Shown in pieces: positions 31,204 to 60,913 of a DNA stretch of 64,000 nucleotides. Origin of the DNA: a virus; IMG/VR virus record IMGVR_UViG_3300046714_000544, positions 5,169 to 69,168 of that record; one strand, 5' to 3'. The notes under the pieces are model-generated. The model was not told where the DNA came from, ran no database searches, and saw only the letters and a list, made by a program, of their open reading frames with translations. Made by a program: the position numbers and the translations under genes. Every line of letters starts with the position of its first letter. Within the stretch, counting starts at the first letter, position 1.

Positions 31204-31470
31204 TCACTTCGCACTCTTCAACTGCACAACCAGACCGTAGTTAAGTGTATGTGGTTTAGTCCAACTAGGAGGATAAATCCTAGGATGAGCTTCCTTAGTG
31301 AAATAGTCTCCATCGCACACCCCCACACAATTCCCTTTTGGATCTACTTGAGTAGGGCCGCAGCCTTCGCACAAAACCTCAGCAGCGAGGCCCTTGTTCC
31401 ATTCTTCAACAGTTGTTAATCCCACGAAATCGTCAAACTCCGGGATACATTGCTTGCAATGGTCGCTCAA
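31204..31470 (-). CDS. Cys-rich hypothetical protein
   Basis: CKQC..CEGCGPTQVD..GNC motif. Confidence 0.55.
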   Translation of the reverse strand: MSDHCKQCIPEFDDFVGLTTVEEWNKGLAAEVLCEGCGPTQVDPKGNCVGVCDGDYFTKEAHPRIYPPSWTKPHTLNYGLVVQLKSAK

Positions 31471-32642
31471 CCCTTCACACTCAGCAGCGGCCGCAGCTTC
31501 GCCACCACAGACACCAAATCCATCTGCTGCCTCATGACCACATCAATCGACTTAAAGGCCATAGGATGCTCACCCAGCATTCTCTCATCCTTCCTACAAT
31601 CAACCCCATCTGTTGCCTTCCTGAAGTCGTCGAGGGAGTAAAACTTCGCCGCCCCCTCCCTACTGATCCGCCGTCCAACTCCTGCCGCCGCACTGTGAAA
31701 CGCCCCCGTTGCCCCCTTACCACAAACAATATAAGTGGGCTTCCCCAAACCGCCGGGGATGACTCCAAGATCTCCCTTCCCTGCACGAATGGCCCCCCTT
31801 CGGAGAACGAAGACATGCTCGTTAAAGTGCCGCTCCCAGGAGACGAAGTTGTGAGGACTGTCCACAACCGTCCGCCACTTCGGCTGGAAAGGGAAGAAGG
31901 ACTCGACGATGTCCTTCACAACCTCCATGATGTTCTCCCGGTTCCAGGCTGCGTAGTCCTGGGTCCACTGGACGGCATCACGGCACGCCTGCATCTCACT
32001 GCTCCCCGAGAGGAAGGAGGCAAATTCGGGCGGGATGTGCTCGTTGTGTGGGAGCAACCGCGCCGCTGCAGTGTGGAAGGTGGAAAGAGTCTTGCCGATG
32101 TCCCGGCTCCCTGCCTGGACAACCACCCAGAGGTTCTGTCCCTCATCCTCGCATAGTTCGATGAAGTGGCCGCCGGCACCGAGGGTGCCAACCTGCCGCT
32201 GGGCACTGGCCAGGACCCGGATATCCGCCCCCTTGAGGTTGACAAAGAGGCCCCACTTCGGCCATCGACCGAGGCGGTCGATTGGCTCCGTGAATTGGAG
32301 CGTCCCCACCGGGATGCTGCTCTCGATGGCCGTCCTTAGTTCACTCACCAGGGCACTGGTGAGATCGGTGCTCTTCATCCCCAGGGTCGCGGCACGGACC
32401 CCGCACCCGATGTCATGCCCTAGGAGAGAGGGGATCAACGTCCGCCTCGTCGCCACCACCGTCCCGACCGGGCACCCAATCCCCTCCGTCGCATTTGGGA
32501 GGACGACGAGATGTTGGTAGATGTCAGGGGCGACGGAGAGTTCCTTCAGCCGCCCCCAAACTGCCTTCCCCACCTCAATCTGCGTCGCCCAATGGTGGAT
32601 CGGTACTTCCCGTCCTGTCCCGTAAGTCACCGCACTCATCAT
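31467..32642 (-). CDS. rtcB: RtcB-family RNA ligase homolog, catalytically degenerate
   Basis: DIGCG, GTLGAGGHFIE, GSR, HNF, RRGA, IPGGLG, GRRISR, P.AFK, LRPLLSVKG; the SHGAGR motif is replaced by AAGVGR. Confidence 0.9.
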   Translation of the reverse strand: MMSAVTYGTGREVPIHHWATQIEVGKAVWGRLKELSVAPDIYQHLVVLPNATEGIGCPVGTVVATRRTLIPSLLGHDIGCGVRAATLGMKSTDLTSALVSELRTAIESSIPVGTLQFTEPIDRLGRWPKWGLFVNLKGADIRVLASAQRQVGTLGAGGHFIELCEDEGQNLWVVVQAGSRDIGKTLSTFHTAAARLLPHNEHIPPEFASFLSGSSEMQACRDAVQWTQDYAAWNRENIMEVVKDIVESFFPFQPKWRTVVDSPHNFVSWERHFNEHVFVLRRGAIRAGKGDLGVIPGGLGKPTYIVCGKGATGAFHSAAAGVGRRISREGAAKFYSLDDFRKATDGVDCRKDERMLGEHPMAFKSIDVVMRQQMDLVSVVAKLRPLLSVKG

Positions 32643-32799
32643 CCGACTCCCTTTTAGGGTTGTTCTTTTAACTCTTTCAACAAAACCACAAGGTGGCGCT
32701 TGCATAGAAACAATGCGTCATTCAACGACACCACACACCAGTTGTAACAACTGTCGCATCTCTGCATTCCGCGTTCCATAGGGAACGCTACTGAGTACC

Positions 32800-47102: not shown

Positions 47103-47205
47103 CCAAAACAGCTTGATCCACGGATGTCGTTGACTGCTTAGGGTTTGCGGCTCTTGGATGGGGCGGATCAACCCCTCTTAAGATAAGAAGGTGCTGAGCT
47201 GCGCT
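47103..47205 (+). repeat. Copy of a ~100-bp dispersed element (also at 59339-59445 and inverted at 59625-59725)
   Basis: CCAAAACAGCTTGATC is identical to 59339-59354; GGGCGGATCAACCCCT is identical to the reverse complement of 59656-59671. Confidence 0.75.
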
Positions 47206-56670: not shown

Positions 56671-57345
56671 TTCAGCCCCGTAGGCCGATGAGTTCGTTGT
56701 GCTCCTTGACCAAAAGGCGCGCAACATCTTCGGAGAGTCCCCCTACAACGATGCCGTGGGATTTCTGGCCATAGATCCAGTAGCCGTAGCCCAAAGCCTC
56801 ACAGTACCACATTTCCCGGGCCAAGGATTCACTCATGGCTTCTCCATAGCTGGTTAAAAAATGCGGCAGTTGGTGTAGACGAAACCCGAGTACACCGTTT
56901 GCCAACGCCAGAACGCTTGAAAGCCAGGTGCCCCATCGAAGACAATGATGTCTCCGTTATCGAAGACGTGAGCCATGGCTTCTCCTTGTAAGTTGTTGAT
57001 GGGGAAGGACTTAGACGGCTTCCTTACGCGCAATCTTCTCCGCGTCGTAAGCCCTATTGAACTGCCATTCCGCCCACTCCTGCAGAGAGAGGTAGAAGGA
57101 TGAGGGCAAGCGCTCGCCGCTGAGAGTCCAGTTGAAAAACTCATCCAGACACTTTCTGAAATCGTCCTTCGTAATCCTTGGATCGGGCATGAGCGGATAC
57201 CTCCGAGCGCCGTCCGTTTGGCGCGGAAATGGCAAAAGATCCGACAGCCTTGCGGCTTCGGATCCTTGAACGTCGGTAGACTGTTCGTGTCAGTCTATCT
57301 CAACCTATCCAGTCCCCTAAGTACTCTCACGCTTGACCGGCCGTC

Positions 57346-58347
57346 CTAGGCCGCTTGCTCCGTTGCTTCCGGCATGCCATCGTCCGTTGCCTGCGCCGCC
57401 GCCGCTGCTTCGTCGCCCGGAACGGGAGTGCTGTCCGTCTTGGGCGCGTCTTCCGTCTTCTTCTTGGCCGTCTTCTTCATCTCCGCGATCACGACAAGGG
57501 CCGTTGCGACGCCTTGCTTGGCACATTGCGGGCAAATCGGCCGTCCCATGAGGATGTTGCCCTCGGGGTCCGTCACGGCCATGATGCTGTCGGCTGAGGT
57601 AAGGCCGGTCGCCGTCTCGCTACTTGTGAGGATCTTGAGGTGCTTCTTGTAGGCGTCGTTCTCAGGGTCCGTCACGTGACCTGCGCAACCAACTGTGACT
57701 CGCTGATTGCCCTTGCCGTGGAAACCCACGCGCAAGGCGTTCATGTCAAAGTCCGGCGCTCCGATGCCGGCCATCGCGTTCCACAAGTCGGCGTATATCG
57801 TGCGTCCAGAATCGGCGGAGTAGACGTTGCTCGCGTTTTCGACCTTGGACAATCCGTGCTCTTTGGCCGATTCGGGCAACGCCTTGATCGCGTCCTTGCT
57901 CTCGCCGGCCGCGATGCGGAGTGCGGCGTGCGCCAAGGTTGCGAACCATCGCATCGGATCATTCCCGAGTACGACGGGGTTGACCTTGATGACGCGAGCG
58001 CCGTTGAACGTGAGGCCAAGCCCTTTCGCGTCGGGGCTTTCGGACGCGGTGCCGTTCGGTGGAATGAAGTAACCGCGCGGCTTGAACGTAACCTCTTTCG
58101 TCGTCGCGTCGGCCACCTTGGTTCCGTCCTGATACGCATACTTGACCGACGTTGCGCTCAGGTCAGGCGCCAGGATGACGGCTACCTTGCCGATGTTAAC
58201 GCCCAGTGTTGCGATGACGGCTTTCAGGGTGTCTTCGGCGTACAACTGAACGTCCGCGATGGTTTGCACCGCATACGTTCCCATCTTCTTGAGTTTGGCC
58301 GGGAGCGTCTTCGTCGGCCTCTCGACCGTCGTTGTTTGGTTCGTCAT
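57346..58347 (-). CDS. First early gene; degenerate SprT-like protein with zinc ribbon
   Basis: IKVNP..L...WFATLAHAALR (HExxH position degenerate); C-terminal VGC...ICPQC; strongly biased codons. Confidence 0.5.
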   Translation of the reverse strand: MTNQTTTVERPTKTLPAKLKKMGTYAVQTIADVQLYAEDTLKAVIATLGVNIGKVAVILAPDLSATSVKYAYQDGTKVADATTKEVTFKPRGYFIPPNGTASESPDAKGLGLTFNGARVIKVNPVVLGNDPMRWFATLAHAALRIAAGESKDAIKALPESAKEHGLSKVENASNVYSADSGRTIYADLWNAMAGIGAPDFDMNALRVGFHGKGNQRVTVGCAGHVTDPENDAYKKHLKILTSSETATGLTSADSIMAVTDPEGNILMGRPICPQCAKQGVATALVVIAEMKKTAKKKTEDAPKTDSTPVPGDEAAAAAQATDDGMPEATEQAA

Positions 58348-58742
58348 GTCTCTCTCGCTTCTGCCCCGTAGGGCCGTCTGTACAGAAAACCCCGTAACTT
58401 GTTGACAATCCCGGAATTGGGAAAGTCAATCAGTTACAGCCGTTCGTCCGTAAGTCGTTGAATCGAGAGTACTTAGGGGATGACGGACACTCCGTTGGCC
58501 GGCGCGAAACCGGTGCGCGAGTGGACGTCTGGATAGGTTGAGAAAGAGCGACACCTTTCCACGCGCTAGGCTTAAAACCGGTGGACCCCCGGCGGGCGCT
58601 AGACACGTGCGGCCGGTATACTGGCCAGAGCACGGGAGCGATGCTACATCTAGGTAGAAGATACGCCCCGAGGGCCGTCCTGTCCAGTCCCGATAGGCAA
58701 CATAGTGCACAATCGAACATGAAACGTTTTCATGGATAGGGC

Positions 58743-59210
58743 TGGCATGATTATTGCAGGTGATGTAAAAAGATGTGAAAGGGTTCGCCTTTCATTCGCC
58801 CCACTTGGCATGACAATTGATATGCCAACCATTGGCACATTCCTTGCTACCCTGCAATCGGCGTGCCACGGGAAAAAATGCCGGCACTCAAAGGGCGTGC
58901 CAGGGAAATTTGCCCGATTTGCTGGCACGAGAAAGTGAGAGCAAGAACCGTGCCAGAAATGGTGCAGGATGTTGCACTTCGTTAACAAACTTTTACAACC
59001 GTTGGCTGGCACGATTGTTGCTAGGATGTAAAAAGATGTTAACTGATCAGCACTTACAGCCCATGGGCAAGAAGCGTGCCAACTGCTGGCATGAAGATTG
59101 CTAGCATGCAAAAGAGGTGCCACCCCGCGCCTGCAATAGGTGTGCCAGCGGTAAGTCCTTTAGAATGAGTAGCTTACCTCGTTGGTTGGTTGTCTGCAAG
59201 GGTCGTGCCA
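58743..59210. promoter_or_regulatory. Array of sigma54 (RpoN) -24/-12 consensus sites in both orientations
   Basis: Ten TGGCAY-N5-TTGC matches (4 on +, 6 on -) plus 3-4 near matches. Confidence 0.85.
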
Positions 59211-59338
59211 ACTTTGTAGGGGGTTAGGGGGTGAGTGAAGGCAATTTTATTTTTCAAATTCTGGGGAATGGCCCCAAAAACCAATCCCTGTAAGTTGTTG
59301 AAAACCGCGAAATTTCGACTTTCAAAAAGGCCAAAATC

Positions 59339-59725
59339 CCAAAACAGCTTGATCTGTGGAAGTTGTTGAAAACAAAGGAGTTGCGGCGGCCAAAGGCCGC
59401 GGGTCAACCCTATATAGTATATATTGCTCTGACCTGACCTGAGGTAGAACAGCCAAGGGGGACTAAGCGCGGGGCGGTTTTTCTGCCCCAGAGACGTTGA
59501 GAGGTTCCCCCTAGAGCAGCTTAGGTGGTCGTTCGGGTGCGCTACCTCGGGCTGCTCCCAATGCAGCCGTGTAGGCCTATAACAGATAGGTCATATGTTG
59601 TTGTCCCAGAGGTTTTAGGCCTCTGTTAGATCAGGTCAGCTTAAATGATATTAATAGGGGTTGATCCGCCCGGTTTTCGGGTGGTAGCAACCCATGGAAT
59701 CAACAACTTAGACAGATCAAGGGGG
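59339..59725. repeat. Imperfect ~100-bp inverted repeat with AT-rich cores and IHF-like sites (possible origin or packaging site)
   Basis: CTTGATCTGT..AAGTTGTTGA..GG(G/A)TCAACCC.TAT..CTGACCTGA at 59348-59438 and inverted at 59630-59721; AATCAACAACTTA at 59698-59710. Confidence 0.7.
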
Positions 59726-59762
59726 GTGCGGCTTTTTGATGGGAACAAAATCCACCAGCAAC

Positions 59763-59792
59763 TTGATTAGAATCAGTGAAATGTGCTATAAT
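59763..59792 (+). promoter_or_regulatory. sigma70-type promoter for the terminase operon (TTGATT-18-TATAAT, TGn extension)
   Basis: TGC-TATAAT upstream of the first rightward gene. Confidence 0.55.
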
Positions 59793-59835
59793 ATGTGCAG
59801 TAAGTGGCCCCGATGGGGGCGGAAAGGTGGCTTGA

Positions 59836-60087
59836 TTGCTCGGTTTTGGTGATGGGACGGCGTTGGACAGGATCGCAGATGCTCTAGAAGACCTCGTAAA
59901 GCTCCAAATTGCCTCTCAGGGCGGTTCTGCGAGGGTAGGACGGCTGAAGACCCTACAGATGGATGAAAACAGCCCTGAGGAGCCCTCAGTGAGCTACACA
60001 GACGACGCTGCGGACGTCAAAAGGGAGGCACTTGAGGACGAACAGCGCCTTTTGAAGCTCTATGGAGGCCGCCGTGGGGGTCGTTGA
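59836..60087 (+). CDS. Hypothetical protein
   Basis: LDRIADALE motif; AAGGTGG SD. Confidence 0.55.
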   Translation: MLGFGDGTALDRIADALEDLVKLQIASQGGSARVGRLKTLQMDENSPEEPSVSYTDDAADVKREALEDEQRLLKLYGGRRGGR

Positions 60088-60913
60088 ACGAGGTTCGATC
60101 GTGACGAAGGACGTGGTTAAGAGGAAATTGGCGATCAAGGCCCTGAAAGAGGCCGGGGTACCCATCCCAGATGAGCTAAAGGAGAGGATTATACATAGGG
60201 TGAAAAGTCCGATAGGGACGTTGACGGTCAGGGAGGGTGCTGGGGTGGTCAGGTCACCCGCTCTGTCCATCTTGAAGCAGTTCGAGAAGAACATCGAGGG
60301 GCAGACCCCGGTGGCGGATGCGATGGCGGTGTCCGAGGTTGCGGGAGAGCGTCTATCCGGTCCAGAGAAGGCCCTTATCCACGCCCTGACCCAAACAAGG
60401 CGGGGGAAGTCAGTCCAGCTAGCGCGCCATATCGCCGAGCAGGGGGTCAACCCGGTCCGGGTCTTCGACCTGTACAGCAAGGGGGTGCTTTATATGAAGA
60501 AGGCCGAGGCTCTTCAAGCCGCCGCGGAGCAGATGCCCCAGGTTATGAAGAATCTCCTCGGTCATGCCGCCTCGGAGGCGGGGGATGTGTGCTCCCTTTG
60601 CGTAGGGACGGGGGAGGTGGCCCGTTCCGCGACCTGTGAGACCGCCCCGGCGAAGCAAGTCCCCTGTCCATCCTGCGAGGGGGCTGGGAAGCGCCTAGAG
60701 CCGTCCAAGCTGAAGCAATTCGCCATCGACAAGCTCCTGGAGGTTACCGATCTGTCGAAGAAGGGCGGAGGGGTGACGGTCAACCAGCAAACCAACGTCG
60801 TCAACACCCCAGCCAACGGTGCGGGTATCCTGGAGAAGATGCGGAAGGCTGCGGATGAGGTGTTGTATCAGAAGAAAGAAGACGTCGTCGAGGCGGAAGT
60901 TGTATCATCCTAA
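60062..60913 (+). CDS. Putative terminase small subunit with CxxCxGxG zinc finger
   Basis: Directly upstream of and overlapping TerL; CSLCVGTG..CPSCEGAG; C-terminal VNQQTNV...VEAEVV. Confidence 0.55.
   Translation: MEAAVGVVERGSIVTKDVVKRKLAIKALKEAGVPIPDELKERIIHRVKSPIGTLTVREGAGVVRSPALSILKQFEKNIEGQTPVADAMAVSEVAGERLSGPEKALIHALTQTRRGKSVQLARHIAEQGVNPVRVFDLYSKGVLYMKKAEALQAAAEQMPQVMKNLLGHAASEAGDVCSLCVGTGEVARSATCETAPAKQVPCPSCEGAGKRLEPSKLKQFAIDKLLEVTDLSKKGGGVTVNQQTNVVNTPANGAGILEKMRKAADEVLYQKKEDVVEAEVVSS

What the first reader, a model, noticed from the sequence alone, without database searches (positions are those of the whole stretch)
58743..59210. Dense bidirectional array of sigma54 (-24/-12) sites: a candidate phage RpoN-holoenzyme sponge or landing pad
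Seen: in about 470 bp of the divergent non-coding region there are 10 matches to TGGCAY-N5-TTGC. On the + strand: 58743 TGGCATGATTATTGCA, 58833 TGGCACATTCCTTGCT, 59007 TGGCACGATTGTTGCT, 59087 TGGCATGAAGATTGCT. On the - strand: 58853-68 TGGCACGCCGATTGCA, 58940-55 TGGCACGGTTCTTGCT, 59066-81 TGGCACGCTTCTTGCC, 59107-22 TGGCACCTCTTTTGCA, 59132-47 TGGCACACCTATTGCA, 59195-210 TGGCACGACCCTTGCA. Near matches occur at 58806 (both strands), 58887-902 and 58923. The spacers differ in every copy while the GG/GC positions and spacing are kept, which points to selection for the motif rather than tandem duplication. At equal base frequencies the chance expectation is about 0.002 sites. Two + sites are followed by the same GATGTAAAAAGATGT. 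Known: sigma54-RNAP binds such sites as stable closed complexes that cannot fire without an AAA+ enhancer-binding protein, and I recognise no such protein in this window. Inference: the array could titrate host sigma54/RNAP (damping nitrogen, motility or phage-shock regulons), shield or pull in the first-injected DNA end, or gate early versus late transcription by host state.
Basis: partly seen in the sequence, partly recalled or inferred. Interest (0 to 1): 0.92.

Follow-up and report, generated by a model that had tools for sequence, protein, structure and literature searches.

The report
Sigma-54 docking-site array in phage
An uncultured soil phage packs thirteen textbook docking sites for the bacterial sigma-54 RNA polymerase into the gene-free control region between its two gene arms, and similar site clusters next to a G-rich box recur in many unrelated phages, pointing to a little-studied way in which phages use a host transcription factor.

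Summary
All 10 exact TGGCAY-N5-TTGC sites of the 69-kb phage genome lie in 58743-59210. Shuffles expect 0.24. Three one-mismatch sites lie among them.

The sites also show the flanking preferences I recall for sigma-54 promoters. Relatives keep the GG/GC positions at orthologous sites while the spacers change.

The array enlarges a family module: a face-to-face site pair, an IHF-like site, then a conserved GGTTGTCC / G-rich box / T-run. Three relatives' contigs start at that element, so it may be a genome end.

Face-to-face pairs occur in at least 120 viral stretches, against 1 for a reversed control. They are often followed by a G-box, in phages sharing almost no proteins with this one. That favours a host factor over a phage protein.

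No activator or sigma-54 gene was detected in the phage. The host is unknown and no RNA data exist.

Best reading (0.5): host sigma-54 holoenzyme sites acting as enhancer-dependent promoters into both arms. A non-transcribing sponge or landing pad remains open (0.25).

Earlier notes of this scan describe similar arrays on other DNA. My literature searches found only the phage YuA precedent.

The parts
58743..58758 (+). sigma-54-type site TGGCATGATTATTGCA, followed by GATGTAAAAAGATGT
58806..58827 (.). two overlapping one-mismatch sites (58806-58820 +, 58813-58827 -), -12 element TTGA/TTGT
58833..58868 (.). face-to-face pair: 58833-58848 (+) and 58853-58868 (-), 20-nt offset
58888..58902 (-). 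one-mismatch site TGGCACGCCCTTTGA
58940..58955 (-). sigma-54-type site TGGCACGGTTCTTGCT
59007..59022 (+). sigma-54-type site TGGCACGATTGTTGCT, followed by GATGTAAAAAGATGT
59066..59081 (-). sigma-54-type site TGGCACGCTTCTTGCC, back-to-back with 59087
59087..59122 (.). conserved face-to-face pair: 59087-59102 (+) and 59107-59122 (-); aligns with pairs in L089, L091, L013, L107, L109
59132..59147 (-). sigma-54-type site, orthologous to L089 1484-1499
59149..59186 (.). conserved block GTAAGTCCTTTAGAATGAGTAGCTTACC; an IHF-like site sits here in relatives (perfect WATCAANNNNTTR in L089 and L109; two mismatches by eye in the window)
59187..59193 (.). GGTTGTC motif; homologous position at which the contigs of three relatives (L011, L016, L108) start: probable genome terminus or repeat boundary
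59195..59210 (-). rightmost sigma-54-type site, 8 nt from the G-box; orthologous to L089 1548-1563; L172-type arrays of other phages end the same way, with a minus-strand site starting 25-26 nt before their G-box
59219..59258 (+). G-box GGGGGTTAGGGGG followed by a T-run; conserved in 13 of 24 family loci examined
59284..59736 (.). inverted pair of ~100-bp elements with AT-rich boxes and lineage-specific repeats; folds far better than shuffles
59763..59792 (+). sigma-70-like promoter TTGATT-18-TATAAT with TG, just before the first rightward gene
58348..58742 (.). left part of the gene-free region, with three IHF-like sites (58395, 58424, 58451) and a block conserved with L089

Best explanation
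The 470-bp segment is a cluster of 10 exact and 3 one-mismatch recognition sites for the host's sigma-54 (RpoN) RNA polymerase holoenzyme. The sites face both ways. They lie in the 1.49-kb gene-free control region between the leftward DNA-metabolism arm and the rightward packaging and structural arm of a 69-kb uncultured soil phage.

The cluster is an amplified version of a module conserved in this phage family. The module is a face-to-face pair of sites, then an IHF-like bend site, then a conserved GGTTGTCC / G-box / T-run element that may mark the genome end.

Inferred mechanism: host sigma-54 holoenzyme docks on these sites as closed complexes. A host enhancer-binding ATPase, helped by IHF-type bending, then fires them as promoters leftwards and rightwards on the circular or concatemeric genome. 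Phage transcription would thus be tied to a host signalling state. The extra copies would raise capture of the scarce holoenzyme.

Shown here: the motif, its enrichment, its conservation and its context. Inferred only: binding, firing and the identity of the activator.
For: 1. Core motif. All 10 genomic matches lie in 470 bp, against 0.24 expected. Outside the array, one-mismatch matches are at chance level.

2. Flanks. They fit the extended sigma-54 consensus as I recall it: Y before TGG in 8 of 10 sites (read), G after TGGCAY in 7 of 10, and W after TTGC in 9 of 10. The core consensus TGGCAC-N5-7-TTGCT is quoted in PMC12316311 (passages).

3. Conservation in relatives with 38-49% TerL identity.
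- L089 has 5 exact sites against 0.06 expected.
- L091 has 5 sites within 218 bp.
- L013, L107 and L109 keep a pair at the homologous place.
- Of 9 family loci that cover at least 150 nt left of the G-box, 6 have sites.
- Orthologous sites keep GG/GC while the spacers change.

4. Contrast with phage-specific repeats. The repeats next to the array differ from lineage to lineage, while the sigma-54 motif does not.

5. Spread beyond the family.
- The face-to-face pair occurs in at least 120 viral stretches, against 1 for a reversed control.
- The central gap varies from 3 to 8 nt, so the halves look like independent sites.
- 314 half-sites show the same flank preferences.
- Only 3 of 112 proteins of this phage hit any of 231 such loci.

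6. IHF-like sites. The gene-free region holds 7 of the window's 22 matches with up to 1 mismatch. Perfect matches lie between the pair and the G-box in L089, L107 and L109.

7. Precedent. Phage YuA is reported to depend on sigma-70 and sigma-54 for transcription (passage in PMC10914365 citing Ceyssens 2008).
Against: - The host is unknown, so the presence of rpoN is untested.
- No RNA run holds the sequence.
- No enhancer-binding protein domain is found in the phage, and no upstream activator site was identified.
- The nearest genes are about 500 nt (leftward) and about 650-1100 nt (rightward) from the sites.
- A good sigma-70-like promoter already sits just before the rightward operon.
- Sites 20-25 bp apart should not be occupiable together.
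- Outer sites mostly face inward (window, L089, L091), so transcripts would cross the array head-on.
- The conserved G-box shows that non-sigma-54 elements are also kept across lineages. Motif constancy alone therefore does not prove a host factor.
- Three of 9 informative relatives (L009, L093, L110) lack the sites.
Confidence: 0.5

Rival explanations
1. Non-transcribing docking array. Host sigma-54, alone or as holoenzyme, binds the sites but is never fired. The array then acts as a sink for sigma-54 that damps sigma-54-dependent host responses, or as a stable protein cap or landing pad beside the genome end or packaging site.
For: - Site density is too high for simultaneous promoter use, with offsets of 17-36 bp.
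- Orientations are mixed, and sites are far from genes.
- No activator is detectable.
- Most E. coli sigma-54 sites are bound by transcriptionally inactive holoenzyme (PMC4591121, passages).
- Three relatives' contigs start 21-24 nt before the G-box. This would put the array in the last ~450 bp of a linear genome.
- Arrays of 4-11 sites lie directly upstream of a G-box in 22 distinct other viral contigs.
Against: - Several relatives keep only one pair, which is a poor sink.
- The conserved IHF-like site upstream of the minus-strand site fits the promoter layout as I recall it.
- In the other lineage with the G-box 16-mer, contigs do not pile up at the box: only 3 of 116 have under 100 nt upstream.
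- Contigs of four soil runs read straight across the putative end.
- No measurement of binding or titration exists.
Confidence: 0.25
2. The motif is bound by a phage-encoded protein and only resembles the sigma-54 consensus. Candidates are a small terminase or cos accessory factor, a replication initiator, or a repressor.
For: - The array sits 1.7-2.2 kb upstream of the large terminase gene, beside a probable terminus and iteron-like repeats. As I recall it, lambda's cos region has a similar layout, with terminase-binding repeats in both orientations plus IHF sites.
- Paired, palindrome-like copies could suit a dimeric binder.
- Most phage proteins here have no known function.
- The G-box is conserved in the same way as the sites.
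Against: - The match to sigma-54 covers all 11 core positions plus flanks.
- The central gap of pairs varies from 3 to 8 nt.
- Single unpaired sites keep the full two-part motif.
- The motif is constant across phages in which only 3 of this phage's 112 proteins have any match near the module, whereas neighbouring repeats differ by lineage.
- The genes left of the array are unrelated among relatives.
- No sigma-54 DNA-binding domain is encoded.
Confidence: 0.15
3. Origin-of-replication accessory. Sigma-54 polymerase docking or transcription beside iterons and an AT-rich box activates or times replication initiation.
For: - The cumulative GC skew has its minimum at 56-58 kb.
- Lineage-specific iterons and AT-rich boxes flank the module.
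- In two unrelated contigs (L153, L163) four TGTGGATAAC repeats lie between the pairs and the G-box. I recall these as DnaA-box-like.
Against: - The skew switch coincides with the change of gene strand, so it may only reflect transcription.
- There is no DnaA-box cluster in this gene-free region.
- No initiator protein was identified.
Confidence: 0.1

Closest known systems
Sigma-54-dependent promoters of Pseudomonas phage YuA (Ceyssens et al. 2008, seen only as cited in PMC10914365; further details from recall)
   Same: A phage without an activator gene of its own uses the host's sigma-54 -24/-12 promoter type.
   Different: As I recall, YuA has a few single promoters in front of structural and lysis genes. 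Here there are 13 closely packed sites in both orientations in one gene-free region, far from genes, tied to a G-box and a probable genome end. No protein similarity to YuA was looked for directly. The nearest cultured TerL hits are Tunturiibacter phages at 24.7% identity.
Bacterial enhancer-dependent sigma-54 promoters with IHF-assisted looping (layout recalled from the nifH, Pu and glnHp2 type)
   Same: The GG/GC core, its spacing and its flanks. An IHF-like site lies upstream of the conserved minus-strand site. The polymerase is expected to sit as a closed complex.
   Different: No activator sites or activator gene were identified. Sites overlap face-to-face. Copy number is far higher than at any bacterial promoter region I know of.
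Silent sigma-54 binding sites of E. coli (ChIP-seq, PMC4591121)
   Same: Perfect-looking sites bound without firing, many far from gene starts.
   Different: The E. coli sites are scattered single sites. Here they form a dense conserved array in a phage control region.
Lambda cos region (cosQ-cosN-cosB with R sites and IHF sites; recalled)
   Same: A repeated motif in both orientations plus IHF-like sites, next to the terminase genes and a probable terminus.
   Different: The motif equals the sigma-54 consensus and is shared by phages with different terminases. It lies on the side of the terminus away from the terminase genes.

Membership tests
sigma-54 (-24/-12) promoter / binding site | GG and GC dinucleotides exactly one helical turn apart within TGGCAC-N5-TTGC | tested here: met
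   10 exact and 3 one-mismatch sites. Consensus quoted in PMC12316311.
sigma-54 (-24/-12) promoter / binding site | Extended preferences: pyrimidine before TGG, G/purine after TGGCAC, A/T after TTGC (consensus recalled, not from a call) | tested here: met
   Window: Y in 8 of 10 (read), G in 7 of 10, W in 9 of 10. 314 viral half-sites: Y 76%, R 97%, W 86%.
sigma-54 (-24/-12) promoter / binding site | Physical binding by sigma-54 holoenzyme | not testable with these tools
   Needs gel shift, footprint or ChIP.
sigma-54 (-24/-12) promoter / binding site | Host encodes rpoN | not testable with these tools
   The host is unknown. No close prophage relative was found in 185,579 species genomes. Relatives cannot be drawn for a virus record.
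enhancer-dependent promoter (functional) | Cognate AAA+ enhancer-binding activator and its upstream sites | tested here: not met
   No PF00158 match in six frames at E<=1 and none among 90 ORFs. No activator sites were identified. A host activator remains possible.
enhancer-dependent promoter (functional) | IHF-type bend site between activator sites and promoter | tested here: inconclusive
   7 of the window's 22 IHF-like matches (up to 1 mismatch) lie in the gene-free region. Perfect matches occur at the homologous place in L089, L107 and L109. The strict consensus gives 1 match against 0.75 expected in the window.
enhancer-dependent promoter (functional) | Transcript starting about 12 nt downstream and a gene served | not testable with these tools
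   No RNA run is listed. Nearest genes are 500-1100 nt away.
cos-type packaging region | Defined genome terminus next to the terminase genes | tested here: inconclusive
   Contigs of 3 distinct relatives start at GGTTGTCC, 21-24 nt before the G-box. This genome assembled as a circle with a 127-nt overlap, and soil contigs read across the site.
cos-type packaging region | Repeats bound by the phage's small terminase | not testable with these tools
   The candidate 283-aa CXXC protein has no informative fold match.

The most novel reading that the evidence does not exclude
Many uncultured phages, this one included, carry a dedicated cis-module: arrays of sigma-54 docking sites abutting a G-rich box, here beside the genome end. 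In this reading the module is not an ordinary promoter. It would be a platform that captures host sigma-54 polymerase as stable closed complexes. That could sequester sigma-54 and silence sigma-54-dependent host responses. It could also cap, anchor or organise the phage DNA end or origin.
Probability: 0.25. Interest if true: 0.9.

Novelty: new variant of a known kind. Interest (0 to 1): 0.7.

Why it matters
Sigma-54 is the one bacterial sigma factor that parks polymerase on DNA until an ATPase fires it. Apart from a few promoters in phage YuA, my searches found nothing on its use by phages.

The work here finds a conserved and repeatedly amplified sigma-54 site module in phages that share almost no proteins around it. 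That suggests a general phage strategy. Phages may couple their programme to host signalling through enhancer-binding proteins, or they may exploit the unusually stable closed complex for a non-transcriptional purpose.

The idea is directly testable. Sigma-54 recognition is conserved, so the 470-bp fragment can be tested with holoenzyme from a model bacterium even though the host is unknown.

Tried and rejected
Searches for relatives and host
- Close relatives by single-protein search in viral contigs: none found.
- DNA similarity of the gene-free region to 50,697 deposited phages: none.
- Prophage relatives in species genomes: only distant hits at 23-27% identity, so no host could be assigned.

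RNA and population data
- Rfam: nothing at gathering score. Only one weak chance-level hit in the gene-free region.
- tRNA scan: none.
- RNA evidence: no RNA holder is listed.
- Population variation: the array is identical in contigs of four soil or rhizosphere runs, so there are no informative polymorphisms. Holes in that cover prove nothing.

Coding potential and neighbouring genes
- The 96-aa ORF at 58430-58720 looks spurious by composition, and no minus-strand ORF of 70 aa or more lies in the matching region of L089.
- Genes left of the array are not homologous among relatives, so they are unlikely partners of the array.
- The conserved 283-aa CXXC protein upstream of TerL gave only zinc-finger-level matches. 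Its model has mean pLDDT 68.8 and no Foldseek match at E<=0.001. Its role stays open.

Other motif tests
- A pattern joining TTGTCC, G-box and T-run found only known family contigs plus 5 stretches (L263-L265, L268, L269) that I judged unrelated.
- DnaA-box cluster in the gene-free region: none.
- Enrichment of pairs at contig ends in general: by hand count, 3 of 31 full-length contigs have the pair within 100 nt of an end. That is too weak to claim.
- The left part of the gene-free region as RNA folds only slightly better than shuffles, z = -2.0.
- T7-like pulling of the DNA by transcription: rejected as the main idea because site orientations are mixed.

Papers
- Supplements were not consulted.
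- Ceyssens 2008 itself was not read.

Full report
**Setting**

The window is bases 5169-69168 of a 69,168-bp virus record whose ends overlap by an exact 127 nt. That is an assembly circle, so the physical ends are unknown.

- Rightward genes include a large terminase (PHROG terminase hits) and structural genes.
- A roughly 40-kb leftward arm carries a family A polymerase with a UDG domain, an RtcB homologue, a helicase-like AAA_25 protein and many unknown genes.
- The finding lies in the gene-free region between the leftward gene 57346-58347 and the first rightward gene at about 59836.

**The observation**

- TGGCAY-N5-TTGC occurs 10 times in the window and in the whole genome, always within 58743-59210. 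Shuffles expect 0.24, and 0 of 100 reach 10. A backwards control pattern gives 0.
- With one mismatch allowed, 13 of 21 matches are in the array. The other 8 equal the chance expectation of 7.15.
- Beyond the core, the base before TGG is a pyrimidine in 8 of 10 sites (read). The base after TGGCAY is G in 7 of 10, and the base after TTGC is A/T in 9 of 10. These match the extended sigma-54 consensus as I recall it. The core consensus is quoted in PMC12316311.

**What the phage lacks**

No enhancer-binding AAA+ domain (PF00158) and no sigma-54 DNA-binding domain (PF04552) are found in six frames at E<=1. Pfam on 90 ORFs gives 22 families. None is a sigma factor, RNA polymerase, activator or helix-turn-helix regulator. 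A divergent activator cannot be excluded. A 2026 preprint describes a phage AAA+ protein that resembles such activators only in structure.

**Relatives**

The TerL search gave 58 homologues. An alignment of 30 of them retrieved family loci from viral contigs and metagenome contigs. I scored sites as at least 10 of 11 core positions with GG and GC required.

- 70 non-family loci have 41 such sites in 920,802 nt, or 0.045 per kb.
- L089 (49% TerL identity) has 5 exact sites in 236 bp, 1.5-1.7 kb upstream of TerL, against 0.06 expected.
- L091 has 5 sites in 218 bp.
- L013 has a pair plus weaker sites. L107 and L109 have one face-to-face pair each. L097 and L116 have a single perfect site.
- Fifteen other loci have no such site upstream of TerL. 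Four of these (L011, L016, L108, L102) hold little or no sequence left of the G-box.
- Of the 9 loci that cover at least 150 nt left of the G-box, 6 have sites. L009, L093 and L110 do not.
- Pairwise alignment with L089 shows that the sites at 59087, 59132 and 59195 are orthologous to L089 1441, 1484 and 1548. GG/GC are kept and the spacers differ.
- A six-way alignment shows a conserved face-to-face pair followed by a CTTTAGAATCA...CTTA block. That block is a perfect IHF consensus in L089 and L109. L107 has a perfect match nearby on the other strand.

**A probable terminus**

A conserved GGTTGTCC, then about 15 nt, then GGGGG(T)TAGGGGG, then a T-run lies 1.5-2.9 kb upstream of TerL in 13 of 24 family loci examined. 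Nine loci had no hit, and two regex hits looked unrelated.

The contigs of three distinct relatives (L011, L016, L108; no shared 40-mers) begin at that motif, 21-24 nt before the G-box. This suggests a physical genome end or a terminal-repeat boundary. In the window it would fall at about 59187-59193, 2-8 nt from the rightmost site. The rest of the array would then occupy the last ~450 bp of the other end.

Against this, the genome assembled as a circle, and contigs of four soil runs read across the place.

**Beyond the family**

- Central gaps are 4 nt (61 cases), 7 (33), 5 (26), 6 (19), 3 (18) and 8 (4).
- 314 non-identical half-sites show Y 76% before TGG, purine 97% after TGGCAY and A/T 86% after TTGC.
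- In 54 of the 120 loci a GGGG-N1-4-GGGG box lies within 250 nt. The rate at random positions in the same loci is 9%. By my count of the rows, about 44 of the 54 have the box on the same side of the pair.
- Conversely, of 116 stretches holding a G-box 16-mer, 40 have at least one sigma-54-like site in the 400 nt upstream, and only 3 have one downstream.
- 22 distinct such arrays have 4-11 sites, in alternating pairs with a period of about 46-47 nt. In 14 of the 22 the last site is a minus-strand site 25-26 nt before the box. The window has 24 nt.
- These phages are not recognisable relatives. TerL hits 1 of 120 loci. Only 3 of 112 window proteins hit any of 231 loci, 1.87 Mb in all. The loci cover only some kilobases around the module.

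**Interpretation**

Four observations make host sigma-54 the most economical binder:
- the motif equals the sigma-54 consensus in core and flanks;
- it stays constant where neighbouring repeats differ by lineage;
- pair gaps vary;
- it recurs in phages that share almost no proteins with this one around the module.

Whether the sites fire is open.

For promoters:
- the YuA precedent;
- the conserved IHF-like site upstream of the minus-strand member of the pair;
- enrichment of IHF-like sites in the gene-free region, 7 of 22.

Against promoters, or for a docking platform:
- no activator is visible;
- sites are packed at 17-36 bp offsets;
- outer sites face inward;
- genes are 500-1100 nt away;
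- a sigma-70-like promoter lies directly before the rightward operon;
- sigma-54 sites are commonly silent in E. coli.

The phage-protein rival is weakened but not excluded. The G-box is conserved in the same way as the sites, and I compared only the flanks of those loci.

**Literature**

Five searches and passages of five papers gave the YuA precedent and a putative sigma-54-like protein in a Pectobacterium phage. They gave no description of sigma-54 site arrays or decoys in phages. Subscription papers and supplements were not visible to me.

Earlier notes of this scan describe similar arrays on other DNA. I re-tested the claim that pairs are widespread and the 26-nt back-to-back spacing.

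Noticed in passing
window 59187-59260; L011, L016, L108 starts: A conserved GGTTGTCC / G-box (GGGGGTTAGGGGG) / T-run element. Three distinct relatives' contigs begin at it, suggesting a genome terminus or terminal-repeat boundary. Several versions have four G-runs and so could form a G-quadruplex.
   Followed up: partly
window 59211-59835 (and 47103-47205): An inverted pair of ~100-bp elements makes this stretch fold far better than shuffles (z = -10). AT-rich TATATAGTATATA-like boxes flanked by repeats look like an origin or a packaging site.
   Followed up: partly
L091 3200-3770; L013 1370-1490; L089 1680-1860: Each relative has its own repeated motif between the G-box and the rightward promoter, for example CGGTTCC(C/G)G in L091 and GGAACCTGTCC in L013. 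These look like binding sites of lineage-specific phage proteins.
   Followed up: partly
window 59763-59792: A near-consensus extended -10 sigma-70-type promoter (TTGATT-18-TATAAT with TG) lies just upstream of the first rightward gene. Similar TTGACA promoters sit at the same place in L010 and L013.
   Followed up: no
window 56988-59301: TCAANNNNTTAC occurs 5 times against 0.7 expected (a post hoc pattern), always in or near the gene-free region. It overlaps the IHF-like sites.
   Followed up: partly
window 60062-60913: A conserved 283-aa protein with a DnaJ-type CXXCXGXG zinc finger lies directly upstream of TerL in 16 relatives' loci. It has only weak Q-antiterminator-like hits and no fold match. 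It could be a small terminase or a regulator.
   Followed up: partly
L153 and L163 (unrelated viral contigs): Four TGTGGATAAC repeats lie between the sigma-54 pairs and the G-box. I recall these as DnaA-box-like, which hints at an origin function for the module in some phages.
   Followed up: no
L018 3582-3662: Two perfect sigma-54-type sites, convergent and 65 nt apart, flank the TerL stop codon of a relative.
   Followed up: no
window 31467-32705: The phage encodes an RtcB homologue. In Salmonella the host rtcBA operon is sigma-54/RtcR-dependent and is influenced by prophage genes (PMC9879122, abstract only). A link to the array is speculative.
   Followed up: no
L172, L184, L248, L292 and others: Very regular arrays of 9-11 sigma-54-like sites in other viral contigs: alternating pairs with a 46-47 nt period, ending 25 nt before GGGGGAGGGGGTTGAC.
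   Followed up: partly
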